Source of the DNA: an uncultured beta proteobacterium
GTDB taxonomy: Bacteria > Pseudomonadota > Gammaproteobacteria > Burkholderiales > JACQAP01
DNA: 64,000 bases
NCBI GenBank assembly: GCA_963846655.1
Contig: CAWJWT010000002.1
Coordinates: 957,870-1,021,869 of the forward strand
Direction: 5' to 3'
This document shows positions 29,091 to 40,511 of the stretch, piece by piece (the stretch's first letter is position 1; the number at the start of each line of letters is the position of its first letter). A program made the translations under genes and the position numbers. The notes under the pieces are model-generated. The model was not told the DNA's origin. It saw only the letters and a program-made list of their open reading frames with translations, and made no database searches.

Positions 29091-29119
29091 AGTCGCGGCC
29101 TAGCCCAGGGTCCTCTCTT

Positions 29120-29318
29120 TACTCAGTCCTCAGCACTCAATCCTCAGTCCTGCCTTTTCACCCGGCCGGGCAAGCTTGTCCCCGTCGCGCTATGCGCGTA
29201 AGCCCGGTATCCCCTTGCGGGACACGACATTTATGGGCGAAGCCCTGTATCCCTTCAGTGACACGGCCTTCCCTCGTCACGATCGTCACGTCGTCACGCC
29301 GTCACGGCCGTCACGACA
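29120..29318. repeat. CTCAGT words followed by TCACG word-arm element (copy 5)
   Basis: actcagtcctcagcactcaatcctcagtcc, then two GCCCGGTATCCC..GGGACAC units and CGTCACG words. Confidence 0.85.
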
Positions 29319-29361
29319 ACTGATGTAATATGACCAACTAGATGACCAACAGAGGTTTCCT

Positions 29362-29613
29362 GTGGACAATCGTCAAAAAACATATAGCGTCGCCGAGGCC
29401 AAGACCCATATGAGCGAAATGCTGGATCGGGCGGAGAAGGGCGAGAAGGTCGTGATTACCCGACGCGGGGAACCTGTTGTCCAGTTGGCCCCGGTCAAAT
29501 CGGTCACGCCCGGCATCGATTTCGCGCGTTTGCGTGCACTACGCGCAACCATGCCCAAGGCGAAGATATCGGCTGACAAACTCGTGCGCAAAATGCGGGA
29601 CGAGAAGTACTGA
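29362..29613 (+). CDS. type II antitoxin, Phd/YefM family
   Basis: 83 aa with YSVAEAKTHMSEMLDRAEKGEKVVITRRGEPVVQLAP. It sits directly upstream of a PIN toxin. Confidence 0.8.
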   Translation: MDNRQKTYSVAEAKTHMSEMLDRAEKGEKVVITRRGEPVVQLAPVKSVTPGIDFARLRALRATMPKAKISADKLVRKMRDEKY

Positions 29614-30042
29614 TTGATCTACCTGGACACCAATTTGGTGGTCGCACTCTGCGCCGCGGAGCGCGATTCCGATCGGGTAGAGTCCGCGCTTGCCGCGGCC
29701 AGCGGGGAGGCCTTCTGCATAAGCGAATGGACCCGCGTGGAATTCACCAGCGCGGTCGGGATCAAGTATAGAAATCGGGAACTGACCGAACCGTTGGCGC
29801 GCCGGGCGCTTGCTGACTATTACGAAGCGTTCGAAGCCGGAGTCACGGTCATCACGCCTTCACGCGACGATTACATTCTCGCAGCGTTTTATCTCCAGGA
29901 TCTGCGAAGTGGGCTTCGTGGCGGCGACGCGCTCCATATCGCCGTTGCGGTGAATGCAAAGACAACCCGTCTTCTGACGCTCGACCGCATCTTTGTGAAG
30001 GCCGCGCGTGGCCTCGAGGTTCCGGTCGAACTTCCCTGGTAG
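29614..30042 (+). CDS. vapC: type II toxin, PIN domain (VapC)
   Basis: 142 aa with IYLDTNLVVAL (first acidic residue) and ...GGDALHIAVA...LLTLD. It abuts the antitoxin stop. Confidence 0.8.
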   Translation: MIYLDTNLVVALCAAERDSDRVESALAAASGEAFCISEWTRVEFTSAVGIKYRNRELTEPLARRALADYYEAFEAGVTVITPSRDDYILAAFYLQDLRSGLRGGDALHIAVAVNAKTTRLLTLDRIFVKAARGLEVPVELPW

Positions 30043-30167
30043 TTCCCACGCCAGTGAAGTCGGGCACAATTGTTCCGTCATGACCGTTATGGGCAACGGC
30101 ACTGCGAATCGACGAGAATCCAGATCGGTTATGCAGGCAGTTCTAATTGCCCGAGCATACGGGGTGC

Positions 30168-30306
30168 TCATTTATGGGCGCTAGCGGGGTTATGGGCAAG
30201 GCGGGAATCCCTTTACGGACACGATCAGTATCACGATATTCACGGACCTTCCCTCGTCACGACCGTCACGATCGTCACGTCGTCACGACCGTCACGCCGT
30301 CACGGC
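30168..30306. repeat. TCACG word-arm element (copy 6)
   Basis: ATTTATGGGCGCTAGCGGGG..., then ATTCACGG and CGTCACGA words. Confidence 0.85.
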
Positions 30307-30363
30307 CCTTCCGCGGCACCCGCAAAAGAGCGTAACATGTACATCTTATCTGTACATACCGGG

Positions 30364-30615
30364 ATGCGAGCCATGTCTTCCTCCGTAAACGTCACCCAGC
30401 TCCGTCAGAATCTTCCCGAGTACCTGAAGCAGGTTCGGGAGGGAAAGGAAGTCGAAGTCACCGTGCATGGCAAAGTCATCGCCCGCCTGGTCCCGGAAGC
30501 CGCAAAAAGCGATCGGGCAAAGAAAAGGCTCGCCGAACTTCGCAAGACCGCCAAGGTAGGCGACGTGACCTCTCCAGCGGGCGCAGCCTGGACGGGCGAT
30601 CGTGATCATCTGTGA
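30364..30615 (+). CDS. type II antitoxin, Phd/YefM family
   Basis: M(RAM)SSSVNVTQLRQNLPEYLKQVREGKEVEVTVHGKVIARLVP. It overlaps the following PIN gene by 14 nt. Confidence 0.8.
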   Translation: MRAMSSSVNVTQLRQNLPEYLKQVREGKEVEVTVHGKVIARLVPEAAKSDRAKKRLAELRKTAKVGDVTSPAGAAWTGDRDHL

Positions 30616-30994
30616 CACCCACGTGCTCGTCTTCGACGCCCTCGCACCCGCGCGGCTATCGGCAAAGGCGCGCCGGCGGCTGAAGGATGGAGAGTCTGCG
30701 GGGCAGTTGGCCTGCGCAGATATCTCCCTCTGGGAAATTGCCATGTTGATTGCGAAACGGCGACTGCAAATCGACGAGGAATCCGGATCCTTTATCCAGG
30801 CAGTCCTGGATGCCCGGGGCTACCGGGTGCTTCCCATAACGTCGGAAATCGCAGCCCTTTCGCAAAGCGCGGATTTCACCCAGAAGGATCCCGCCGATCG
30901 CCTGATTGCGGCAACCGCCCTTGCCGCCGGCGCGGAACTGCTTTCCGCCGATCAGGCAATGAAGGGCATACCGGGCTTGAAGCTGGTCTGGTAG
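30602..30994 (+). CDS. vapC: type II toxin, PIN domain (VapC)
   Basis: 130 aa with MIICDTHVLVF and ...DPADRLIAATALAAGAELLSADQAM. Confidence 0.8.
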   Translation: MIICDTHVLVFDALAPARLSAKARRRLKDGESAGQLACADISLWEIAMLIAKRRLQIDEESGSFIQAVLDARGYRVLPITSEIAALSQSADFTQKDPADRLIAATALAAGAELLSADQAMKGIPGLKLVW

Positions 30995-31015
30995 CGCCGC
31001 ATAGAGATCACTATC

Positions 31016-32567
31016 GTGCGACAAGACGAACTGCGCTCCATACTGCTGGTTAAGGCGATCGAGGAGGTCGACCAGGCGGGAACGCTCATGCCGCTGGCGG
31101 ACCGAGCCGCTGCCACACGGGAAGCCCGGCGTGCCGCTGGCGACGTGGCCCCACCCCGCGACGGTATCGAGCAGGGGAAGCTCTCGGAAGCGGCGCAGCG
31201 AATGGGGGTCGAGCGCTCGAGAATTCTGGTGGGAAAGATCGTTGCGCGGCATCCTTTCGTCGATACCGTTTTGAACCTGACCGTTGGTCCCGCCTGGGTG
31301 GGTTGGGTGGTTGTGGCCCTCGGTCTCGTCCTCGGATTCTCGCTCTCTGCCCTGGACGGCACGCGACACATCAACATCCTCGCCTTTCCGCTCCTCGGCG
31401 TGGTGCTCTGGAATCTCGCGGTCTACATGGCGACCTTCGTCAACTGGGTACGTGCGCGCTCAACGACAAAGCAACCGCAGCGAGGGCTTGCCCGGAGCAC
31501 TGACAAACTTCGGGATGCGCCTCGTGGCCCGGCAGTTGGCGAAGGCCGCTGCCTACAACGTGCCGCTCGCCGAGGCACTCCGCCGCTTCACCAGGGAATG
31601 GTTCGAGGTGGCGAGGCCATTGCTGGTGGCGCGTGCAACCCGCCTCTTTCATTTTTCGGCGGTAGCCGTCGGGATCGGCCTCATCGCGGGACTCTATGTG
31701 CGCGGCATCGCGTTCGACTACCTGGCCGGCTGGGAGAGCACCTTCCTCAACGCCTCGAGTGCCCGTGCGCTCCTCTCGGTCATCTATGGCCCGGCATCGT
31801 TCATCGCGGGGATTTCCATTCCCGACGTCGCCTATCTCGAGTCGATTCGCTGGAAGGGTGGCGCGGGAGGCGAGCAGGCGGCGCGCTGGATTCATCTCAT
31901 CGCGGCGACGGTGGCGCTTTACGTCGTGCTGCCGCGCCTGGTGCTTGCTCTGGCAGGGACGATTTCCATCGCGCGATGGTCGCGCCGCGCGCCGCTTCCG
32001 GCCTCTGTCTCCGCGTACTTCCGCGTGGCCTTCGGAGCGCTGGCCGGCGTGGTGGGCCGCGCCTTGGTCACGGTCATCCCCTACGCGTACGAACCTTCCG
32101 CGGCCGCGCGCGCGGGGCTGCGCACGTTGCTGCCCGCGGCGCTCGGAGAAAGTGTCACCCTCGATGCACGCGCGCCGGTGCGTTACGGCGAGGAAGACGA
32201 ATTCCTCCAGGGCCTGGGTAACGCGGGCAAACCGGACATCGTGGTGCTGTTGTTCAATCTCGCTGCCACGCCGGAAGAGGAGAACCATGGTGCCTTGATC
32301 GCCGGCGTGCGCGACGGGCTCACCGCGAAGCGCCTCGGCCAATTGCTCGTGCTGGTAGATGAAGCGTCCTATGCATCGAGGATGGGGGCAAACGGCGGCG
32401 CGAACGCGCGCGTACCAGAACGTCGCCACGCATGGCAGCAGTTCGTCGCGGCCCGGGGCATGGTCGCGTGCATCGTGAATCTCGCGACAGCCGAAGGCAA
32501 TGGGGTGCCGCCTCCCGAGCAAACCGATTGCATCCGCAGCGCCCTGTGGCAGCCCGATCCGGCATGA
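31016..32567 (+). pseudogene. DUF2868-like membrane protein, one frameshift (~31,450-31,500)
   Basis: ORF 31016.. (…NILAFPLLGVVLWNLAVYMATFVNWV) continues in ORF 31284..32567 (LTNFGMRLVARQLAKAAAYNVPLAEALRRFTREWF...). The DUF2868 assignment is from memory of the conserved pairing with the DUF3482 GTPase. Confidence 0.6.
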
Positions 32568-34073
32568 ATCAGCCCGCGACGCCCGCCGATGGAGCGGCCA
32601 CGATCAACCTCAGCCTGATCTCGCACACCAATGTCGGCAAGACCACGCTGATGCGCACGCTCACCCGCCAGGACATCGGCGAGGTGGCGGACCGTCCGCA
32701 TGTGACAGAAGAGGCCGAAAGCCACGTGCTGATCGACACACCGCAGGGCGACGCGCTGCGCCTGTGGGATACGCCCGGGTTCGGTGACAGCGCGCGGCTG
32801 CTCAAACGCCTGCGCGCCAACGCGAACCCGGTTGGCTGGCTGCTGACCCAGGTTTGGGACCGGTTTACCGACCGACCCTTCTTTTGCAGCCAGCGGGCAA
32901 TCCGCAACGCGCGTGACGAAAGCGACGTGGTCCTGTATCTCGTCAATGCCGCGGAGGATCCGACGTCCTCGACCTACGTGGAGAAGGAATTGGAGATCCT
33001 CGGCTGGGTCGGCAAGCCCGTCGTGGTACTGCTCAACCAGCTGGGACCCGCGCGCCCGAAGGAAGCGGAAGCGGCCGAAGAGGCGCTGTGGAGCCGGCAC
33101 CTGGCCGCGCATGTCGGCGTCGCGCGGGGCAATCACGCTGGATGCTTTCGCGCGATGCTGGGTGCAGGAAGACAGGCTCCTGGGCGTGGTTCGCGACGTG
33201 CTAAGCGCGGAGAAGCGTCAATCTTTCGAGCGATTGCGCCACGCCTGGCGCAAACGAAACGTGGAAGTGTTCGACGCCGCGATGCACTCGGTCGCCACCC
33301 AGCTCGCCGCGGTCGCAACAGACCGGGAAACCGTCGGCAAGCAAAGCATCCCGCAGCGAGCGCGGCGTTGGCTCGCCTCCCTCGCGACCGACCACGCGAA
33401 ACCCGATCTCGCCACGGAGCACGCGATGAACACGCTCGCAAGCCGGCTCGATCTGGCGGTGCGCGCGAACACCGATCGGTTGATCGCGCTGCACGGCCTC
33501 TCGGGTCGTGCGAAGGCGGCCATCCTCGCGCGTCTCGCCGGACAATTCCAGGAAAACAAGCCCATGGACGTCGCGACCTCTGGCGCCCTGGGCGGAATGG
33601 TGAGTGGCGCCCTGGGCGGCCTCGCCGCGGATCTCGCTTCGGGCGGACTTACCGTCGGCGCCGGCGCGCTCATCGGCGGCATTGTCGGCTTGCTCGGTGG
33701 AGGCGGTGTTGCGCGCGCGTATAACCTGGCACGTGGCACCGAGGACGGCCATGTGCGCTGGTCGGCGGAGTTCCTTACACAGCGCTTCGTCGCGGCGATC
33801 CTGCGCTATCTGGCCGTCGCCCACTACGGGCGCGGGCGCGGCGATTGGGTCGAGGCCGAGTACCCGGCGCACTGGCAGCCTCTGGCGAACGAGGTCGCCG
33901 CGCAGTATCGAAGTGAGCTCGAGGCCACCTGGGCCGCAACTGAGCGCGCGAGCGCCCACGAGGTGGAAAAACAACTGACACCCATCGTTCGCAAGGCGGT
34001 GCGGGAAGTCCTGGAACGGCTTTATCCCGAAGCGCGGGAAATGTTCGACTCTGCGCGCCAACCGGGCCATTGA
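32564..34073 (+). pseudogene. GTPase with DUF3482-like C-terminal region, one frameshift (~33,125)
   Basis: ATGA overlap with the upstream gene. P-loop SHTNVGKTTL, G3 DTPGFGD, LLNQLG. The C-terminal part (ORF 32913..34073) has a Gly-rich membrane segment GALGGMVSGALGGLAADLASGGL. Confidence 0.7.
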
Positions 34074-34099
34074 GCGGCCAACTGACACCGCATTACGCC

Positions 34100-34175
34100 C
34101 GCTTGATTGGCGACTCGCGCGCGATATCGTTGGGCAAGGCGTGGTCACGTATATAGGGTCCTGTTCTGGTTCAAG
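34100..34175 (+). pseudogene. internally deleted remnant of a DUF5615-type toxin gene
   Basis: gattggcgactcgcgcgcgatatcgttgggca matches 34,853-34,885. aggcgtggtcacgtatatagggtcctgttctggttcaagctga matches 35,118-35,161. Confidence 0.7.
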
Positions 34176-34211
34176 CTGACTCGCGCTGCTAACTCCCCGG
34201 TATGTAGTCGC

Positions 34212-34537
34212 GTCCGTCACGTCGTCACGACATTTATGGGACGTTGGCCCGGTTATGGTCGCAGACCGGTACCCTTTAGGGACGCGACATTTATGGTCGA
34301 CAGACCGGTATACCCGCAAGGGTGCACGATATTCACGACACTCACGATATTCACGACATTCACGGCTTTCCCCGACACGACCGTTATGGGCGACGCCCGG
34401 TACCCCCTCGGGGGGCGCGATATTTATGGGCGTCAGCCCGGTATCCCTTTAGGGACATGACATTCACGGTATTCACGACATTCACGATATTCACGGCTTC
34501 GTCGTCACGACCGTCACGTCGTCACGCCGTCACGACC
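34212..34537. repeat. TCACG word-arm element (copy 7, about 5 hairpin units)
   Basis: Multiple (A/T)TTATGG..GCCCGGTA(T/C)CC..GGGAC units alternate with ATTCACGA and CGTCACG words. Confidence 0.9.
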
Positions 34538-34616
34538 CTTGTTTCCCCTTGTGGGGGTACGCCCGTCACGGCTCTTAAGGTTGCACGCCCCCGCGAGTTA
34601 AGGGTAGGCTAACCGC

Positions 34617-34829
34617 ATGGATAAACCCGTTATTTCCTGCAATCCCGATGTGATGGGCGGCACTCCGGTTTTTTCCGGCACGAGAGTGCCGGTTCAGACT
34701 CTGCTTGACTATCTTGAAGCTGGGGACTCAATTGACGATTTTCTGGCTGGCTTCCCTTCCATCAATCGAGAACAGATCATCAGTTTTCTTGAGCAGGCGA
34801 AAGACCGTCTGGTCGCCACTGCCCATTGA
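34617..34829 (+). CDS. DUF433-family antitoxin-like protein
   Basis: 70 aa with NPDVMGGTPVFSGTRVPVQTLLDYLEAGDSIDDFLAGFPSI. Confidence 0.75.
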   Translation: MDKPVISCNPDVMGGTPVFSGTRVPVQTLLDYLEAGDSIDDFLAGFPSINREQIISFLEQAKDRLVATAH

Positions 34830-35161
34830 GAATATTTGTCGACGAATGCGTTGATTGGCGTCTCGCACGCGATATCGTTGGGCACGAGGTCAAGACCGCG
34901 CGCCAGATGGGTTGGACAACTCTAAAAAACGGCGAACTGCTTGCGCTTGCATCCAAACAGTTCGAGGTCTTTGTCACTGTCGATCGCAATCTCTCGTTTC
35001 AGCAGAATCTTCCCGCCTTCGATATCGCCGTCGTCATACTGCGATTCAGGTCAAACAGGCTGGGCGACCTTCAACAGCTGGTGCCGGACCTGCTTACCTA
35101 TCTTGAAACGGCGCAGCTTGGCGTGGTCACGTATATTGGGCCCGATTCTGGTTCAAGCTGA
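34826..35161 (+). CDS. DUF5615-family (Mut7-C/PIN-like) toxin-like protein
   Basis: 111 aa with MRIFVDECVDWRLARDI. It has a 4-nt overlap with the DUF433 gene. Confidence 0.7.
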   Translation: MRIFVDECVDWRLARDIVGHEVKTARQMGWTTLKNGELLALASKQFEVFVTVDRNLSFQQNLPAFDIAVVILRFRSNRLGDLQQLVPDLLTYLETAQLGVVTYIGPDSGSS

Positions 35162-35189
35162 CTCGCGCAGCTAATTCCCCGGTATGTAG

Positions 35190-35402
35190 TCACGTCCGTC
35201 ACGTCGTCACGATTGTCACGACATTTATGGGCGTTAGCCAGGTATCCCTTTTGGGACACGACATTCACGATATTAACGGCTTCGTCGTCACGACCGTCAC
35301 GTCGTCACGTCGTCACGTCATTCACGACATTCACGATATTTATGGGCGTCAGCCCGGTATCCCTTTAGGGACACGACCGTCACGTCGTCACGTCGTCACG
35401 AC
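35190..35402. repeat. TCACG word-arm element (copy 8)
   Basis: The same junction sequence as at 34,175-34,230, followed by two hairpin units and CGTCACG words. Confidence 0.9.
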
Positions 35403-35468
35403 CAATTTCCTTGAGTCCTGCCCTGGAATTCGCTAAAGTAAGGATTCCTTACTTTCTTTAAAAAGCCA

Positions 35469-35705
35469 ATGCTAGCCAAGCTGACGTCCAAGAACCAGCT
35501 TACCCTGCCCAAGAGCGTGACCACCGCAGTGGGAGCCGCCGAGTATTTCGAAGTGGAGGCCAAGGCCGGCCAGATTATCCTGACCCCGGTGCGCATACAG
35601 CGGGCTGGGTCGGTACGAGCCAAACTGGCGGAGCTCGACATCACCGAGCAGGACGTCACCGACGCCGTGACCTGGGCACGCAAGCCCAAACGCCGGCCGA
35701 AATGA
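35469..35705 (+). CDS. AbrB/MazE/SpoVT-family antitoxin
   Basis: 78 aa with MLAKLTSKNQLTLPKSV. Confidence 0.75.
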   Translation: MLAKLTSKNQLTLPKSVTTAVGAAEYFEVEAKAGQIILTPVRIQRAGSVRAKLAELDITEQDVTDAVTWARKPKRRPK

Positions 35706-36139
35706 CACGCGCGCCACGCGTCGTGTTCGATACGAACGTCGTGCTCTCGGCCCTTGTGTTTACGCACGGCAGATCCGTTCTCGTCCGCGAAGCCTGGCAG
35801 GCTGGGCGTTGCAAGCCCTTGGCTTCCAAGGCCACAGTGGACGAACTGGTACGAGTGCTCGGTTATCCCAAGTTCAAGCTTGCGGCCCAAGATCAGCGCG
35901 AGCTACTTGGCGACTACTTGCCTTATTGCCAGATCTTGGCTATCCCGCAGAAGGTTCCCAAGACGCCCCCGTGTCGGGACGTTTTCGATGTGCCGTTTCT
36001 GCAACTCGCGATTGTGGGGAAGGCTGACTTTCTGGTCACCGGCGATCAGGACCTGCTGGAGATCAAGAGCAAGCTTCTGTGCCCCGTCGTCACTCCTGAG
36101 GTGTTTCTTGGCGGTTCGCCAGGGAGCAGGGGGTCGTAA
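35702..36139 (+). CDS. PIN-family toxin (TIGR00305-like)
   Basis: 145 aa with RVVFDTNVVLSALVF and ...DVPFLQLAIVGKADFLVTGDQDLL. It has a 4-nt overlap with the antitoxin. Confidence 0.75.
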   Translation: MTRAPRVVFDTNVVLSALVFTHGRSVLVREAWQAGRCKPLASKATVDELVRVLGYPKFKLAAQDQRELLGDYLPYCQILAIPQKVPKTPPCRDVFDVPFLQLAIVGKADFLVTGDQDLLEIKSKLLCPVVTPEVFLGGSPGSRGS

Positions 36140-36184
36140 GCATTGGCCTCACCTCAGCATGGGCGGTTAGCCTGGAATCCCCCG

Positions 36185-36312
36185 GCCCTTCTGCCCTCTG
36201 TCTTCAATTCTCTGTCCTCTGACGCAGCACGCAGCACCCAGCACTCAACACGCAGCACCCTGCATCCAGTTCTCTCTTCCTCAGTCCTCAGTCCTCGTCA
36301 CTCGCTCCTCGG
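36185..36312. repeat. mixed simple-word repeat (CCCTTCTGCC, GCAGCAC, CCTCAGT words)
   Basis: cccttctgccctctg..., gcagcacgcagcacccagcac..., cctcagtcctcagtcctcgtc. Confidence 0.6.
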
Positions 36313-37341
36313 CGCCGCCGCCCTATAGTCCTGCATGATCACGGCCATCACATCGCCCTTGCGCACGCGGCCGGAACCGGGCGCCATCCAGACATAGCCG
36401 TCGAGCGGAAACTCGATCGGCTTCGGCTCGCGCGCCCATTCCTCGATGAAGTGCAGGGTGCCGGCCAGCTTGCCGGCGCGCACCTCCTGCCCGGGCAGGA
36501 ATGTCGGCTCGAACAGTCCGTCGCTCGGCGCGAACAGATACGAGCGCTGGTCGCGCACCTGCATCTGCCGGGTGCGCCCGCCGCCGGGGTGCGAGGTGTC
36601 CGGCTTGCCGTCGATCATGCCCAGGCCCTTCAACACATTGTCGAGGCCGCGCTCGGCATAGCGCAGGCCCTCGACGCTGACGCGCCCGTAGCCGCCGATC
36701 TCTGAGGAGATCGACAGCGCACCGTGGCGCTCGGCTGCGGCGGCCACCGTGCCGCCCTCGTCCACACCCCAGAACACCACGTTGTAGGGCGCGGCGAAAT
36801 TCTCCGTGAGTGCCTGGGTGCGCGCCATGACCTGGGGATCGTCCACCCAGTGCATGATCGTGCACAGCGCGGCTTCCATGGAATTGCCGGCGGCATGCAC
36901 GTCGACCGACACCTCGACCTGCGGCATGATCACCGTGTCGATGAAGTGCGCTAGCATCTGGCAGAAGCTGCCGCGCGCCTCTCCCGGCATGCAGCGATTG
37001 AAGTCGCGCTCGTCGATCGGGCACATCCGCCGCCCGGCGAGCGCGGCGGGCAGGTCCACCGCGGGCATCAGGATGAGCTTGCCGCGCAGGCTTTGCGGAT
37101 CGAGCCGGCGCGCCAGCCGTGAGCCCGCGATCTGGCCCTCGTACTCGTCGCCGTGCACGCCGCCGGTGAACAGCACCGCCGGCCCCTTGCCGCCATTGAT
37201 CACCGCGATCGGCACCTCGATGGTCGACCACGCGCCGCCGTCGCGCGACTGCGGCACGCGCAGATAGCCGAGCTGCTTGCCCGGCTTGTCGAAATCGATC
37301 TCATGAAAAATCCGGCTGCGGGTGGCGTGGGTGTCTGGCAT
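36298..37341 (-). CDS. succinylglutamate desuccinylase/aspartoacylase (AstE/AspA) family Zn-hydrolase
   Basis: 347 aa from MPDTHATRSRIFHEIDF, with Zn motif FTGGVHGDEYEGQ. Confidence 0.8.
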   Translation of the reverse strand: MPDTHATRSRIFHEIDFDKPGKQLGYLRVPQSRDGGAWSTIEVPIAVINGGKGPAVLFTGGVHGDEYEGQIAGSRLARRLDPQSLRGKLILMPAVDLPAALAGRRMCPIDERDFNRCMPGEARGSFCQMLAHFIDTVIMPQVEVSVDVHAAGNSMEAALCTIMHWVDDPQVMARTQALTENFAAPYNVVFWGVDEGGTVAAAAERHGALSISSEIGGYGRVSVEGLRYAERGLDNVLKGLGMIDGKPDTSHPGGGRTRQMQVRDQRSYLFAPSDGLFEPTFLPGQEVRAGKLAGTLHFIEEWAREPKPIEFPLDGYVWMAPGSGRVRKGDVMAVIMQDYRAAAPRSE

Positions 37342-37539
37342 GGCGCGGTCTCCTCGTTGGAGCCGCCAGCATAGCGAAGGGTGTCTCCTTCTGCCTGGAG
37401 GCGAGCGGGGTGGCCGAGTTATTGGTGCGTAGCCTGTGGGGGATGGCAAACTGCTCCGCCGGTCGTTCAGGACCGTTTCTCTTCGCCATTTCTCGAGGCG
37501 GCGTCTCTATGAGGCTGATCTAGTGCCCGATTGCCACAG

Positions 37540-37675
37540 TTCACGACATTTATGGGTGGGCGTCCCGGTATCCCTTTAGGGACACGACATTCACGATTCA
37601 CGGCTTCACCCCGTCACGTCGTTATGGTCGAAGACCGGTATCCCCTTGTGGGACACGTCGTTACGACCGTCACGT
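37540..37675. repeat. TCACG word-arm element (copy 9)
   Basis: CACGACATTTATGGGTGGGCGTCCCGGTATCCCTTTAGGGACACGACATTCACG..., plus a second unit. Confidence 0.85.
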
Positions 37676-37761
37676 TGCGGACCGCCCTTGCCGCCGGCGC
37701 GGAACTGCTCTCCGCCGATCAGGCAATGAAAGGCATACCGGGGGTGAAGGTGGTGTGGTAG
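37676..37761 (+). pseudogene. 3' remnant of a vapC paralogue
   Basis: ~85 bp encoding ...ALAAGAELLSADQAMKGIPGVKVVW*, nearly identical to 30,911-30,994. Confidence 0.8.
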
Positions 37762-38169
37762 CGGAACCCCCGTGGGGATCCCCGAAATGCGGGGCACGGC
37801 CGAGCGGCGAAGCCATACAAGTCTAGAGACATAGGTAACACCAGAGTTCAAACACATGGGTTACGACTTAGCTTTGGCGACCGGGGGCAGCCCGGTAGCT
37901 GGTCACTTTTCTTGCGCGGCCAAGAAAAGTAACCAAAAGAAGGCCGCCCCTGGTTTCGCGCCCCTTGTCACGGGGTGCCCCTGCGCTGCCTGCCTCGATG
38001 TGGCGACTGCGCAACTCGACCTGGCGAGGCACACACAACGTGCCTCACTGCGGGACTCGAACAGTGCTCGTCGACTTCCCCACATCGAGTCGAGCTGCTC
38101 GGCGCGCCTAAAGGGGAAAAAGCGAAGGTCAAAGGCCTACAGTCTGAGGTCTCAGCTCTGACTTTTCTC

Positions 38170-38496
38170 CTATGGTCGAATACCCTTTGTGCGCAACGCG
38201 TCGGAGTATCCGTTTAGACCGGTTACCCTTTAGGGATCCCTTGTGGAGCACGACCGTCACGTTTGTCACGATCGTTATGGGCAATAGCCCGGTTATCGCA
38301 GCGCGTGTACCCCTGTGGGTATCCCCTTGTGGGACACGACCGTCACGCCGCCACGTCGTCACGTCGTCACGGCCTTTTTCCGCTTAGACTTCTCCGCAAA
38401 CAAGAAACGCGGGAGTCAGTCGCTTGAGCTTCGTCACGATCGTCACGTCGTTATGGGCGTAGCCCGGTATCCCCTTGTGGGACACGACCGTCACGG
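38170..38496. repeat. TCACG word-arm element (copy 10, the last copy in the window)
   Basis: Several TTATGG..GCCCGGT(T)ATC..GGGAC units plus CGTCACG words. No further copies occur to the right. Confidence 0.9.
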
Positions 38497-38821
38497 CGAG
38501 GAACGAGTAAAGGGGAACATGCGGCTCCATCTTGCCGAAATCGGTTGCGGGCGTTCGTTCGAGCTGCCCGTTCAATTTTCTTCTCAAGCATTTGCAGGTT
38601 CATTTAGCAGCGAATACGCCGTTCACGATCCCTCAGTCATCCTCACAACCATCGTTCTCTCCGATCAGTAAAAGGCTGCCGAATATTGTGTGGTGTGTGC
38701 TATTTCTGTTTCTCGTGCCTAATTCAATATGCGAGCGATAGGAGCGTCGTAGAAAATTGGCCACTGAAAATGACTTTGTTCTGGCGGAACGGTTTTAGCG
38801 TAATAGCGGAGATCGCAATTC

Positions 38822-40511
38822 GTGGCAGATAACAACAATCTCCACTTGACCTCGCCCGCGCCGACACCCTCTGGAAGGCCGCCGACGCCCTCCGCGGCCA
38901 GGTCGACGCCGCCGAGTACAAGCACGTCGTCCTCGGCCTGCTCTTCCTCAAGTACATCTCCGACAGCTTCGAGTCCCGCCGCGACGAGCTGCAAGGCCGA
39001 ACTGACGAAGGACGGCATCACCGGCAAGCAGCTCGAAAGCCTGCTCGAATCCCGCGACGAGTACACCGCCGAGCGCGTCTTCTGGGTGCCGCCCGAGTCG
39101 CGCTGGCCGAACCTCCAGAACCAGGCCACCCGCCCCGACATCGCCACGCTGATCGACGACGCCATCCTCGCCGTCGAGCGCGACAACCCGAATCTCAAGA
39201 GCAAGCTCCCGCGCGACTACGCCCGCCGCGGCATCGAGCCGGTCAAGATGAAGGGGCTGATCGACCTGATCGCCGACATCGGCTTCAAGGGCGACGCGCG
39301 ACAAGGCCCGCGACACGCTCGGCCGGGTCTACGAATACTTCCTCGGCAAGTTCGCCGCCGCCGAAGGCAAGCTCGGCGGCGAGTTCTACACGCCGCGCTC
39401 CGTCGTCCGCGTGCTGGTCGAGATGCTCGAACCCTACGCCGGCCGCGTCTACGACCCCTGCTGCGGCTCCGGCGGCATGTTCGTCCAGTCCGAAAAGTTC
39501 GTCGAGGCCCACGGCGGCAACACGACCGACGTCTCCATCTTCGGCCAGGAGTCCAACCCCACGACCTGGCGGCTGGCCCACATGAACCTCGCCATCCACG
39601 GCATCGAGGCCAACCTCGGCGCAGCAGCCCGCCGACACCTTCCTCCGCGACCCGCACCCCGACCTCAAGGCCGACTTCGTCCTCGCCAATCCGCCGTTCA
39701 ACGTCTCCGACTGGTCCGGCCAGCTGCTCCGCGGCGACAAGCGCTGGGCCTTCGGCGACCCGCCCGTCGGCAACGCCAACTACGCCTGGATCCAGCACTT
39801 CATCCACCACCTCGCCTACCCCAACGGCCGCGGCGGCGGCGTGGCCGGGTTCGTCATGGCCAACGGCTCGCTCTCCAGCAACACCGGCGGCGAGGGCGAC
39901 ATCCGCCGCAAGATCGTCGAGGCCGACCTCGTCGATTGCATCGTCGCCATGCCCGCGCAGCTCTTCTTCACCACCGGCATCCCCGTCTGCCTCTGGTTCC
40001 TCACCCGCGACAAGACCGGCAAGAACATCCGCAAAGGCACGCCGAACCGCCCCGGCGGCCGCAAGGGCGAAACGCTCTTCATCGACGCCCGCAAACTCGG
40101 CACGCTGCAGACCCGCGACGCTCCGCGTCCTCACCGGCCTGCGAAGACGCCGAGTGCGTGCCGACGGCACGAGCGACCCGCTCCCCACCAGTCCGACATC
40201 GGCCGCATCGTCTACGCCTACCGCAGTGGCGCGGCGAGCCCACGCCCGACTGGTGGAACGAAGAACGACCACGGCGAGTGGGCCTTCACCGCCGACGCCC
40301 GGCTTCTGCCAAGCCCGCGACGATCGACGAGATCGCCAAGCACGGCCACGTCCTCACCCCCGGCCGCTACGTCGGCGCCGAAGACATCGAAGACGACGCC
40401 GAACCGTTCGCCGAGAAGTACCCGCGACTGGTGGCGGAGTTGGAGGAGTGCTTTGGCGGAGGGGGAGCGGTTGATGGGCGGTCGTGCGCGAGCGACTCGG
40501 AGAGGTCTGCG

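What the first reader, a model, noticed from the sequence alone, without database searches (positions are those of the whole stretch)
29190..38496. TA-cassette array in which every module is bracketed by the word-arm repeats, with gene remnants
Five complete two-gene TA modules occupy this stretch: Phd/VapC at 29,362; Phd/VapC at 30,364; DUF433/DUF5615 at 34,617; AbrB/PIN at 35,469; and the DUF2868/DUF3482 pair at 31,016. Each sits between copies of the TCACG element, giving a repeat-cassette-repeat-cassette organisation over 9 kb.

Two remnants show turnover.
- An internally deleted DUF5615 copy at 34,100-34,175 is followed by the same ~60-bp junction (gctgactcgcgcNgctaaNtccccggtatgtagtc...) that follows the intact gene at 35,150.
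- A vapC 3' end at 37,676-37,761 is nearly identical to 30,911-30,994.

The layout superficially resembles an integron cassette array, but I see no intI and no attC-like consensus. The repeats may be recombination or insertion hotspots that capture TA cassettes.
Basis: partly seen in the sequence, partly recalled or inferred. Interest (0 to 1): 0.65.

Follow-up and report, generated by a model that had tools for sequence, protein, structure and literature searches.

The report
Repeat-separated toxin-antitoxin gene islet
Four self-contained toxin-antitoxin gene pairs sit in a 9-kb unstable stretch whose spacers are filled with a genus-specific family of intergenic repeats; related bacteria carry the same pairs in a different order, but the repeats are general genome repeats, not integron-type capture sites.

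Summary
The layout is real but overstated. There are four TA operons, not five: Phd/VapC twice, DUF433/DUF5615, and AbrB-like/PIN. DUF2868/DUF3482 is a large membrane-protein/GTPase pair. Five of eight spacers hold TCACG-word arrays, against 3.3% of intergenic regions genome-wide (P about 2e-6). All 35 word pairs lie on one strand. Both gene relics are confirmed at 92-93% identity.

The repeats are not TA-specific. The genome has 104 such loci, and their flanking genes have normal sizes and housekeeping functions. The words are confined to this genus of uncultured Burkholderiales. PIN loci in sister genomes are not enriched for them.

An integron integrase exists on another contig. A true integron in the genus uses canonical attC sites and none of these repeats.

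Three of the four TA operons recur in a sister genome in another order. Homology runs from operator to stop codon and ends next to TCACG words. Two cassettes are 87-95% identical in DNA, against 67-82% for chromosomal genes.

Best reading: a BIME/NIME-like mosaic repeat family fills a plastic islet where autonomous TA modules are exchanged and reshuffled. This probably happens by recombination in the repeats. It is not integron-like capture.

The parts
29113..29150 (+). Tract of CTCAGTCC/CAGCAC words directly after the EAL gene stop (29090). Synteny with the closest relative ends here.
   Evidence: (D20)
29185..29320 (+). Spacer 1: two double-hairpin (module A) units followed by five TCACG words
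29330..29350 (+). Direct repeat ATGACCAAC(n)AGATGACCAAC. Putative operator of the first Phd/VapC operon. Homology with the sister genome starts here.
   Evidence: the operator role is inferred
29362..30042 (+). TA module 1: Phd-family antitoxin (29362-29613) and PIN/VapC toxin (29614-30042)
   Evidence: Pfam PF02604 at 44 bits and PF01850 at 45 bits; TIGR01552
30060..30320 (+). Spacer 2: degenerate module-A units, then arrays of 2 and 6 TCACG words
30337..30357 (+). Palindrome ATGTACAtcttatcTGTACAT, conserved in four genomes. Putative operator of the second Phd/VapC operon.
   Evidence: the operator role is inferred
30373..30994 (+). TA module 2: Phd-family antitoxin (30373-30615) and PIN/VapC toxin (30602-30994). 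It is 92-95% identical in DNA in three other MAGs.
31016..34073 (+). DUF2868 membrane protein (31016-32567, frameshift near 31480) and GTPase-DUF3482 protein (32564-34073, frameshift near 33125). Not a TA pair. GC is 65-69%.
34103..34175 (+). Relic of DUF5615: the 5' 34 nt joined to the 3' 40 nt, an internal deletion of about 234 nt
   Evidence: (D13)
34176..34560 (+). Spacer 3, the largest: shared junction, five module-A units and four word arrays (both 8-nt and 9-nt words)
34617..35161 (+). TA module 3: DUF433 (34617-34829) and DUF5615 (34826-35161). It is 87% identical in DNA in sister genome G104.
35162..35405 (+). Spacer 4: the same junction as at 34176, then word arrays and one module-A unit
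35469..36139 (+). TA module 4: AbrB-like small protein (35469-35705, weak match only) and PIN_3 toxin (35702-36139)
   Evidence: PF13470 at 70.6 bits; TIGR00305 at 52.9 bits and TIGR01439 at 19 bits, below cut-off
36200..36312 (+). Second tract of CAGCAC/CTCAGTCC words. This spacer has no TCACG words.
   Evidence: (D20)
36298..37449 (-). Gene of the succinylglutamate desuccinylase/aspartoacylase family, inside the array on the opposite strand
   Evidence: PF24827 at 105 bits
37530..37675 (+). Spacer 5: two module-A units and scattered words. The last word abuts the vapC relic.
37676..37763 (+). Relic of a vapC2-type toxin gene: the last 28 codons plus the stop
   Evidence: (D15)
37866..38125 (+). 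E240: a structured element of about 250 nt with about 12 copies in this genome, present in 24 of 37 genomes of the genus. In sister genome G104 it separates TA cassettes.
38180..38496 (+). Spacer 6: module-A units and short word arrays. These are the last repeats before the compositional break at about 38.5-38.8 kb.

Best explanation
The stretch is a plastic accessory islet that begins exactly at the stop codon of a conserved EAL gene. It holds four autonomous type II TA operons, each with its own putative operator and with antitoxin and toxin genes abutting or overlapping. It also holds a non-TA DUF2868/GTPase pair, an AstE-family gene and two TA gene relics.

The spacers are built from a genus-specific mosaic family of intergenic repeats:
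- 8- and 9-nt TCACG words in tandem;
- a REP-like double-hairpin unit;
- CTCAGTCC words;
- a 250-nt structured element (E240).

This family behaves like enterobacterial BIMEs or neisserial NIMEs. It is extragenic, favours gene 3' ends, is dispersed over the whole genome next to ordinary genes, and is not dedicated to TA genes.

The proposed mechanism runs as follows. The TA operons are the mobile, selfish, self-expressing units. The repeats supply dispersed co-oriented homology and fragile, slippage-prone DNA. Breaks, deletions, duplications and joins happen there. The routes are RecA-type recombination between direct repeat arrays (excision and re-insertion of a cassette plus array) or homology-anchored uptake of DNA from congeners. 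Addiction by the TA modules then favours their retention.

Shown:
- the anatomy;
- the genome-wide and genus-wide distribution of the repeats;
- cassette re-ordering between species;
- homology edges at operator and stop codon, next to TCACG words;
- excess DNA identity of two cassettes;
- the absence of integron parts.

Inferred: that recombination in the repeats, rather than some other process, moved the cassettes, and that the co-orientation reflects tandem accretion.
For: REPEATS ARE GENERAL
- The genome has 229 arrays in 104 loci. The typical locus has inverted arms around a variable centre.
- Flank genes have a median length of 255 aa against 242 aa genome-wide, and 26% against 26.5% are under 150 aa.
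- Convergent gene pairs make up 28% of flanks against 15% genome-wide.
- The small flank genes outside the window include CcmE, RibH, RidA-type and similar housekeeping proteins.

REPEATS ARE GENUS-SPECIFIC
- Word-array matches number 659 in the own genome and 350 in a sister genome, against 0-2 in the other 79 genomes sampled from the order (81 genomes, 70 genera in all). The reversed-pattern control gives 0.

THE HAIRPIN UNIT IS REP-LIKE
- The stem position covaries in 35 of 35 copies (G-C 11, T-A 18, T-G 6).
- It has 10-25 copies in most genus members.

CASSETTE BEHAVIOUR
- Sister contig L117 (G104) carries DUF433/DUF5615, phd2-vapC2 and phd1-vapC1 in another order, among other TA modules. 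Co-oriented E240, module-A and word copies separate them.
- Homology blocks run from operator to stop codon.
- DNA identity of the cassettes is 92-95%, 87% and 81%, against 67-82% for chromosomal genes.
- The vapC relic is joined directly to a TCACG word.
- Synteny with the closest relative ends at the EAL stop.

LOCAL ENRICHMENT AND STRAND BIAS
-.

PRECEDENT
- REP elements occupy the variable ccdO157 TA site in E. coli, and NIME repeats interleave pilS cassettes (PMC3184786).
Against: - No recombination event was observed directly.
- Homology may end at word arrays simply because the arrays are hypervariable and cannot be aligned.
- PIN loci elsewhere in the genus are not enriched for the repeats (3 of 29 within 1.5 kb, about background). 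Repeats are therefore not needed for TA residence.
- The ParE locus of this genome has none.
- The strict one-strand orientation (55:0) is not predicted by a passive BIME model and remains unexplained.
- Only one of the three relic breakpoints lies at a word.
Confidence: 0.55

Rival explanations
1. Integron-like site-specific capture. The co-oriented repeats (TCACG arrays, double hairpins or E240) are recombination sites. They would be recognised as folded or sequence-specific DNA by a recombinase acting in trans, which inserts and excises TA cassettes at a fixed crossover point.
For: - Cassettes and repeats are co-oriented here and in L117.
- Every cassette's left homology edge lies 30 nt or less after a terminal CCGTCACG word in four genomes.
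- The right edge of the phd2-vapC2 block shared by L021 and L022 also ends at a GTCACG word.
- E240 and module A have structure kept by compensatory changes, as attC sites do.
- The genome encodes an IntI, and that contig ends in a TCACG word.
Against: - The same repeats flank ordinary genes at about 100 loci, usually as inverted arms.
- A true integron in the genus (G015) has canonical GYCTAAC...GTTAGGC attC sites and none of these repeats.
- No attC-like site was found in the array or in L116/L117 (a low-sensitivity script).
- No recombinase gene was seen among the ORFs annotated at 22-38.5 kb, and the only tyrosine-recombinase hits in the genome are IntI and two Xer-like loci on other parts of the assembly.
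- The Y1 transposase genes are not flanked by these repeats.
- The right-hand cassette edges share no motif.
Confidence: 0.08
2. Coincidence of two independent features. The TA modules happen to lie in one of several repeat-dense regions. Because TA operons are short, they create many spacers for the repeats to occupy. The repeats play no part in TA gain, loss or order.
For: - Repeat-dense regions with ordinary genes exist on C6, C7, C9, C12 and C13.
- Within window 5.6-38.5 kb, about one spacer in three has repeats regardless of gene type, including cupin and binding-protein genes.
- TA loci elsewhere in the genus are not enriched.
Against: - The same cassettes lie among the same repeat types in two or three other genomes despite different neighbours.
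- A relic is fused directly to a word.
- All repeats face one way across the array.
- 5 of 8 spacers is still above the regional rate.
Confidence: 0.25
3. Assembly artefact. The order of cassettes, the relics or the end of the array result from misassembly of a repeat-rich, error-prone long-read metagenome bin.
For: - The genome has 13 contigs, 84.7% completeness and many frameshifts.
- Several contigs end in TCACG arrays.
- GC jumps from about 60% to about 70% at 38.5-38.8 kb and the repeats stop there, so that join may be chimeric.
Against: - The relics differ by 7-8% from the intact copies, so they are not collapsed duplicates.
- Independent assemblies of other species show the same cassettes with the same kinds of spacers.
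- The cassette genes themselves are intact.
Confidence: 0.07

Closest known systems
REP elements and their clusters, BIMEs (bacterial interspersed mosaic elements) of enterobacteria and pseudomonads (reviewed in PMC3184786)
   Same: - Extragenic position.
- Hundreds of units per genome.
- Hairpin units with compensatory changes.
- Mosaic clusters of several motif types.
- Bias to gene 3' ends and convergent pairs.
- Association with recombination and variable regions. [quoted passage not shown]
   Different: - The main unit here is a non-palindromic 8-9-nt word in tandem arrays. It forms a palindrome only as two inverted arms.
- No RAYT gene is flanked by the repeats.
- The family is confined to one uncultured genus.
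- In this islet all copies face one way.
Neisserial intergenic mosaic elements (NIMEs) interleaved with silent pilS cassettes (Parkhill et al. 2000, as cited in PMC3184786)
   Same: - Found in a betaproteobacterial lineage.
- A complex array in which gene cassettes alternate with mosaic repeats thought to promote recombination.
   Different: - pilS cassettes are promoterless gene fragments used for antigenic variation of one gene.
- Here the cassettes are complete, unrelated TA operons.
- There is no sequence similarity between the repeats. This comparison is from memory and the review, not tested.
Sedentary chromosomal integron arrays and CALINs, in which TA cassettes are common (PMC11551772, PMC5371416)
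   Same: - Co-oriented short cassettes separated by structured repeats.
- TA cassettes with their own promoters.
- Reshuffling of order between relatives.
- The genus does carry integrons.
   Different: - No attC, attI or adjacent intI.
- The repeats are not confined to the array.
- A true integron of the genus uses canonical attC sites and lacks these repeats.
Chromosomal TA systems flanked by short palindromes at gain/loss hotspots in Photorhabdus (PMC13617665)
   Same: - TA operons, promoter included, are present or absent between relatives exactly at palindromic sequences.
- Several acquisitions at one locus.
- Erosion into pseudogenes.
   Different: - There, some of the palindromes trace to Tn3 res sites.
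- Here they belong to a high-copy host repeat family with no transposon link found.

Membership tests
Integron / CALIN cassette array | An integron integrase gene (intI) with attI next to the array | tested here: not met
   The only IntI (TIGR02249, 491 bits) is at C9:157801-158742, on another contig. No recombinase gene was seen among the window ORFs annotated at 22-38.5 kb.
Integron / CALIN cassette array | attC sites (imperfect palindromes RYYYAAC...GTTRRRY, 57-141 nt) after each cassette | tested here: not met
   My scan found 0 in window 29-38.6 kb, L116 and L117. It recovered 2 of about 8 sites in a true integron of the genus. The canonical sites of that integron are visible by eye. The scan has low sensitivity, and IntegronFinder's model was not available.
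Integron / CALIN cassette array | The repeats are confined to the cassette array | tested here: not met
   104 loci genome-wide lie next to ordinary genes.
Integron / CALIN cassette array | Co-oriented cassettes separated by same-orientation repeats | tested here: met
   All TA operons are on the + strand, and word pairs are 35:0 on the + strand. AstE on the - strand is the exception.
REP / BIME-type intergenic repeats | Extragenic, dispersed, many copies per genome | tested here: met
   There are 229 arrays in 104 loci. At 91 of these loci the midpoint lies outside called genes.
REP / BIME-type intergenic repeats | Hairpin-forming units whose stems are kept by compensatory changes | tested here: met
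   Module A: 35 of 35 copies are pairable at the variable stem position. E240: 14 pairs with double changes. TCACG words pair only as inverted arms.
REP / BIME-type intergenic repeats | Mosaic clusters combining several motif types | tested here: met
   Spacers combine 8-nt words, 9-nt words, module A, CTCAGTCC words and E240 in varying order.
REP / BIME-type intergenic repeats | A RAYT (Y1 transposase) gene flanked by the repeat | tested here: not met
   Three Y1_Tnp genes on C4 are flanked by a different motif (GGCCTGACCCCAT) and not by TCACG words or module A.
Type II toxin-antitoxin (VapBC-type and relatives) | Toxin with a PIN (or PIN-like) domain | tested here: met
   PF01850 twice, PF13470 once, PF18480 (DUF5615) once.
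Type II toxin-antitoxin (VapBC-type and relatives) | A small antitoxin gene directly upstream, abutting or overlapping the toxin gene | tested here: met
   The junctions are 29613/29614 (abutting), 30602-30615 (14-nt overlap), 34826-29 (4-nt overlap) and 35702-05 (4-nt overlap). Phd twice and DUF433 once pass Pfam cut-offs. The AbrB-like protein is below cut-off.
Type II toxin-antitoxin (VapBC-type and relatives) | Toxicity of the toxin and neutralisation by the antitoxin | not testable with these tools
   This needs expression assays.
Type II toxin-antitoxin (claim for DUF2868/DUF3482) | Two small genes encoding a toxin and its antitoxin | tested here: not met
   The products are about 517 and 503 aa. 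The second has an MMR_HSR1 GTPase domain plus DUF3482. No TA family matched.
MITE | Terminal inverted repeats with target-site duplication and a uniform length | tested here: inconclusive
   Inverted arms exist, but their length and the centre vary from locus to locus. Target duplications were not examined.

The most novel reading that the evidence does not exclude
The co-oriented composite spacer works as the recombination site of an undescribed cassette platform. The spacer is the E240 structured element, then GCGAAGC-type double hairpins, then a terminal CCGTCACG word. The platform would stack and exchange promoter-bearing TA operons across this Burkholderiales genus, with crossover at the terminal word. 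It would use a host or unlinked recombinase rather than IntI and attC.
Probability: 0.08. Interest if true: 0.8.

Novelty: new variant of a known kind. Interest (0 to 1): 0.4.

Why it matters
How chromosomal TA modules move is poorly understood when no transposon, phage or integron is in sight. Here the same three TA operons appear in two species of one uncultured genus in different orders. They are cut out exactly from operator to stop codon. Two of them are much more alike than the surrounding chromosome. They are always embedded in a lineage-specific mosaic repeat family. This adds a betaproteobacterial case to a pattern seen with REPs at the E. coli ccdO157 site and with palindromes in Photorhabdus: host intergenic repeats mark the places where TA modules come and go. 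It also shows that an integron-like look can arise without integron parts. That matters for annotation of 'cassette arrays' in metagenomes.

Tried and rejected
- **Integron link.** I found IntI on C9, but no attC array is assembled in this genome. The genus's true integron has canonical attC sites without these repeats. Rejected.
- **First attC scans.** The first three versions were too strict and missed the positive control. The fourth recovered only 2 of about 8 sites, so the negative result is weak on its own.
- **RAYT link.** Three Y1_Tnp genes exist, flanked by another motif. Rejected.
- **Rfam.** Nothing above threshold in 27-39.5 kb. The only weak hit is c-di-GMP-I-GGC on the minus strand of E240 (E = 0.027), taken as chance.
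- **TA enrichment near repeats genome-wide and genus-wide.** None found.
- **My own gene caller.** It is crude. It missed vapC2 and splits frameshifted genes. Flank-gene statistics are therefore approximate.
- **E240 as an end of an IS110-family element.** One copy is interrupted by an IS110-type transposase fragment. That looks like insertion into E240, not ownership. Left open.

Full report
**What is in the stretch**

The window is C2:957870-1021869 of a 4.39-Mb genome with 13 contigs and 62% GC. Related records are named as uncultured Betaproteobacteria/Burkholderiales MAGs. Pfam and NCBIfam confirm four type II TA operons on the + strand:
- Phd/PIN at 29362-30042;
- Phd/PIN at 30373-30994;
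- DUF433/DUF5615 at 34617-35161;
- PIN_3 at 35702-36139, preceded by a 78-aa protein that is AbrB-like only below cut-off.

In each pair the antitoxin gene abuts or overlaps the toxin gene.

The fifth 'module' is not a TA pair. DUF2868 (31016-32567) and an MMR_HSR1-GTPase/DUF3482 protein (32564-34073) are each about 500 aa and each carries one frameshift. An AstE/AspA-family gene lies on the minus strand at 36298-37449.

**The relics**

Both relics are real. Positions 34103-34175 join the first 34 nt and the last 40 nt of DUF5615. The following junction matches that of the intact gene at 92% over 93 nt (D13). Positions 37681-37763 match the end of vapC2 at 93% over 83 nt (D15). At 7-8% divergence they are old or foreign copies, not assembly duplicates.

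**The repeats**

The spacers are mosaics of several units.
- Tandem 8-nt (CGTCACGN) and 9-nt (ATTCACGAY) words.
- A double-hairpin unit, TTATGGKCG-loop-MCCGGTATCCC-loop-GGGACACGA.
- CTCAGTCC/CAGCAC words.
- One 250-nt element, which I call E240.

Arrays of three or more words occur in 5 of 8 spacers here, against 90 of 2742 intergenic regions in the genome (P about 2e-6). Word-pair density is 16 times the genome average. All 35 word pairs are on the + strand (55:0 from 23 kb), against 526:502 genome-wide.

vapC2 and DUF2868 are 21 nt apart with no repeat. The spacer after PIN_3 has only the other word type.

**Are the repeats tied to TA genes? No.**

- The genome has 229 arrays in 104 loci, normally as inverted arms (CGTGA)n - variable centre - (TCACG)n between ordinary genes.
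- Genes flanking these loci have the same size distribution as all genes: median 255 against 242 aa, and 26% against 26.5% under 150 aa. Convergent pairs are over-represented, 28% against 15%, as for REPs.
- The 42 small flank genes outside the window encode proteins such as CcmE, lumazine synthase, RidA-type and Hsp15-type proteins. No TA family appears among the 25 of 32 matched families that the tally lists.
- The assembled genome is TA-poor: 4 PIN hits (3 of them here), 3 Phd hits (2 here) and 1 ParE/RelE hit, which has no repeats nearby.
- In sister genomes, only 3 of 29 PIN loci have a word array within 1.5 kb, about the background rate.
- A cluster of double-hairpin units in G102 flanks genes of 270-520 aa.

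**Distribution**

Word arrays are a genus trait. There are 659 matches in this genome and 350 in a sister genome. The other 79 genomes sampled from the order (81 genomes, 70 genera in all) have 0-2. The reversed control pattern gives 0.

The hairpin unit has 10-25 copies in most genus members. Its variable stem position pairs in 35 of 35 copies examined.

E240 is present in 24 of 37 genus genomes. It has 14 base pairs with compensatory double changes in a 20-copy alignment.

**Integron and transposase checks**

The genome does encode an integron integrase, 491 bits against a 265-bit cut-off. It sits 170 bp from the end of contig C9, and no attC array is assembled.

About half of the genus has intI. 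In G015 the integrase is followed by a classic array of small co-oriented ORFs. These have GYCTAAC...GTTAGGC attC sites and none of the words, hairpin units or E240.

My attC scan found nothing in the window array or in two sister TA arrays, but its sensitivity is low.

Three Y1-transposase genes are flanked by a different motif. The only tyrosine-recombinase hits are IntI and two Xer-like loci on other parts of the assembly.

**Cassette behaviour across genomes**

- The phd2-vapC2 block occurs in three other MAGs at 92-95% DNA identity with different neighbours. Homology starts about 25 nt before a conserved palindrome (ATGTACA..TGTACAT) and ends 5 nt after the stop codon.
- Sister contig L117 (G104, 9.6 kb) carries DUF433/DUF5615, an orphan higA, phd2-vapC2, an XRE-plus-212-aa pair, higBA and phd1-vapC1. 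Co-oriented E240, hairpin units and words lie between them. Three of the window's four modules are therefore there in another order.
- In every case the left edge of homology lies within 30 nt of a terminal CCGTCACG word. The right edge lies at or near the stop codon.
- DNA identity to G004 and G104 is 67-82% for chromosomal genes. It is 92% for phd2-vapC2 and 87% for DUF433/DUF5615. phd1-vapC1 is at background, 81%. Two cassettes were thus exchanged after the species split.
- The closest relative (EAL 82% identical) diverges from the window immediately after the EAL stop codon.
- A third genome (G017:C590) has at least six TA modules in 7.3 kb with sparse hairpin units. TA clustering therefore recurs in the genus.

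**Interpretation**

The repeats behave like BIMEs or NIMEs. They form a host-wide mosaic family of intergenic repeats with hairpin units, a 3'-end bias and a link to variable regions (PMC3184786). The TA operons behave like autonomous selfish modules.

The most economical mechanism is recombination, homologous or slippage-type, within the co-oriented repeat arrays. An alternative route is homology-anchored uptake from congeners. TA addiction then favours retention. This is inferred, not observed.

Three points count against it:
- the lack of TA enrichment near repeats elsewhere;
- the possibility that alignments simply stop at hypervariable arrays;
- the unexplained strict strand bias.

A dedicated site-specific system remains possible but unlikely (about 8%). 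Pure coincidence is the main rival (about 25%).

Precedents are REPs at the variable ccdO157 TA site in E. coli (PMC3184786) and palindrome-flanked TA gain and loss in Photorhabdus (PMC13617665). Earlier notes of this scan describe similar repeat-bracketed TA islets in other phyla. I treat those as leads only.

**Limits**

The assembly of this repeat-rich stretch, the frameshifts and the GC jump at 38.5-38.8 kb (possible chimeric join) therefore could not be checked.
- My gene calls are crude.
- Most sister genomes are short-read MAGs that break at repeats. This may hide repeats next to TA genes.

Noticed in passing
window 37866-38125 (+); also G000 C13 54-94 kb, C12 89-122 kb; L117 368-610, 1760-2173, 3171-3637, 6078-6379: E240 is a multi-stem element of about 250 nt, closed by a long-range helix. 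A 20-copy alignment shows 14 base pairs with compensatory double changes. It has about 12 copies here and occurs in 24 of 37 genomes of the genus. It has no Rfam match. Two optional inserts share one position (about 192-207), and one copy is interrupted there by an IS110-type transposase fragment. It could be an undescribed structured RNA or a structured DNA site.
   Followed up: partly
G000 C9:157801-158742 (-), contig end at 158915: An intact integron integrase (TIGR02249, 491 bits) lies 170 bp from a contig end that finishes in TTCACGT. No attC array is assembled anywhere in the genome, so the cassette array is probably missing from the bin. 19 of 37 genomes of the genus have intI, often at contig ends.
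   Followed up: partly
window 38480-38830 and onward to the end of C2: GC rises from about 60% to 68-75%, and every repeat family stops at about 38.5 kb. A frameshifted type I R-M hsdM gene (named from its N-terminal sequence only) starts near 38.83 kb. This is either an acquired high-GC defence island or a chimeric join.
   Followed up: no
window 29113-29150 and 36200-36312; L022/L023 upstream of phd2: A second word family (CTCAGTCC, CAGCAC, GGGCAC words) follows gene ends and E240 copies. It replaces TCACG words upstream of the phd2-vapC2 cassette in L023 (D20, 31, 45, 53).
   Followed up: no
module-A units, e.g. window 29231-29247, 35341-35358; 14 of the 16 genus genomes searched: The first hairpin of the unit is mostly GGGCGAAGCCC or GGTCGAAGACC. 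That is a GCGAAGC-type mini-hairpin, known from memory as an unusually stable DNA hairpin.
   Followed up: partly
G000 C4:229092-241564: Three Y1_Tnp (IS200/RAYT-like) genes lie within 12 kb. Each is flanked by copies of a GGCCTGACCCCAT(C/T) motif, with a tRNA-like sequence nearby. They are unrelated to the TCACG family.
   Followed up: no
window 29843-29864 and L117 7974-7995: A three-word TCACG array lies inside the vapC1 coding sequence and is conserved in the sister genome. It could serve as an internal homology patch for recombination with the spacer arrays.
   Followed up: no
window 3.7-13.3 kb and 27.5-31 kb versus L016 (G004:C17): G004 has EAL - GST - word-arm element - SleB-like hydrolase - phd2/vapC2 within 3.2 kb. 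In this genome the EAL paralogue plus SleB (11.7-13.3 kb) and GST plus EAL plus the TA modules (27.5-31 kb) are 14 kb apart. This is a local rearrangement or duplication with repeats at the joints.
   Followed up: partly
G000 C6:271428-271694 (-): An orphan Phd-family antitoxin gene has no toxin gene downstream. Three module-A units lie about 800 nt upstream. Its intact Phd/PIN counterpart is seen in G017:C590.
   Followed up: no
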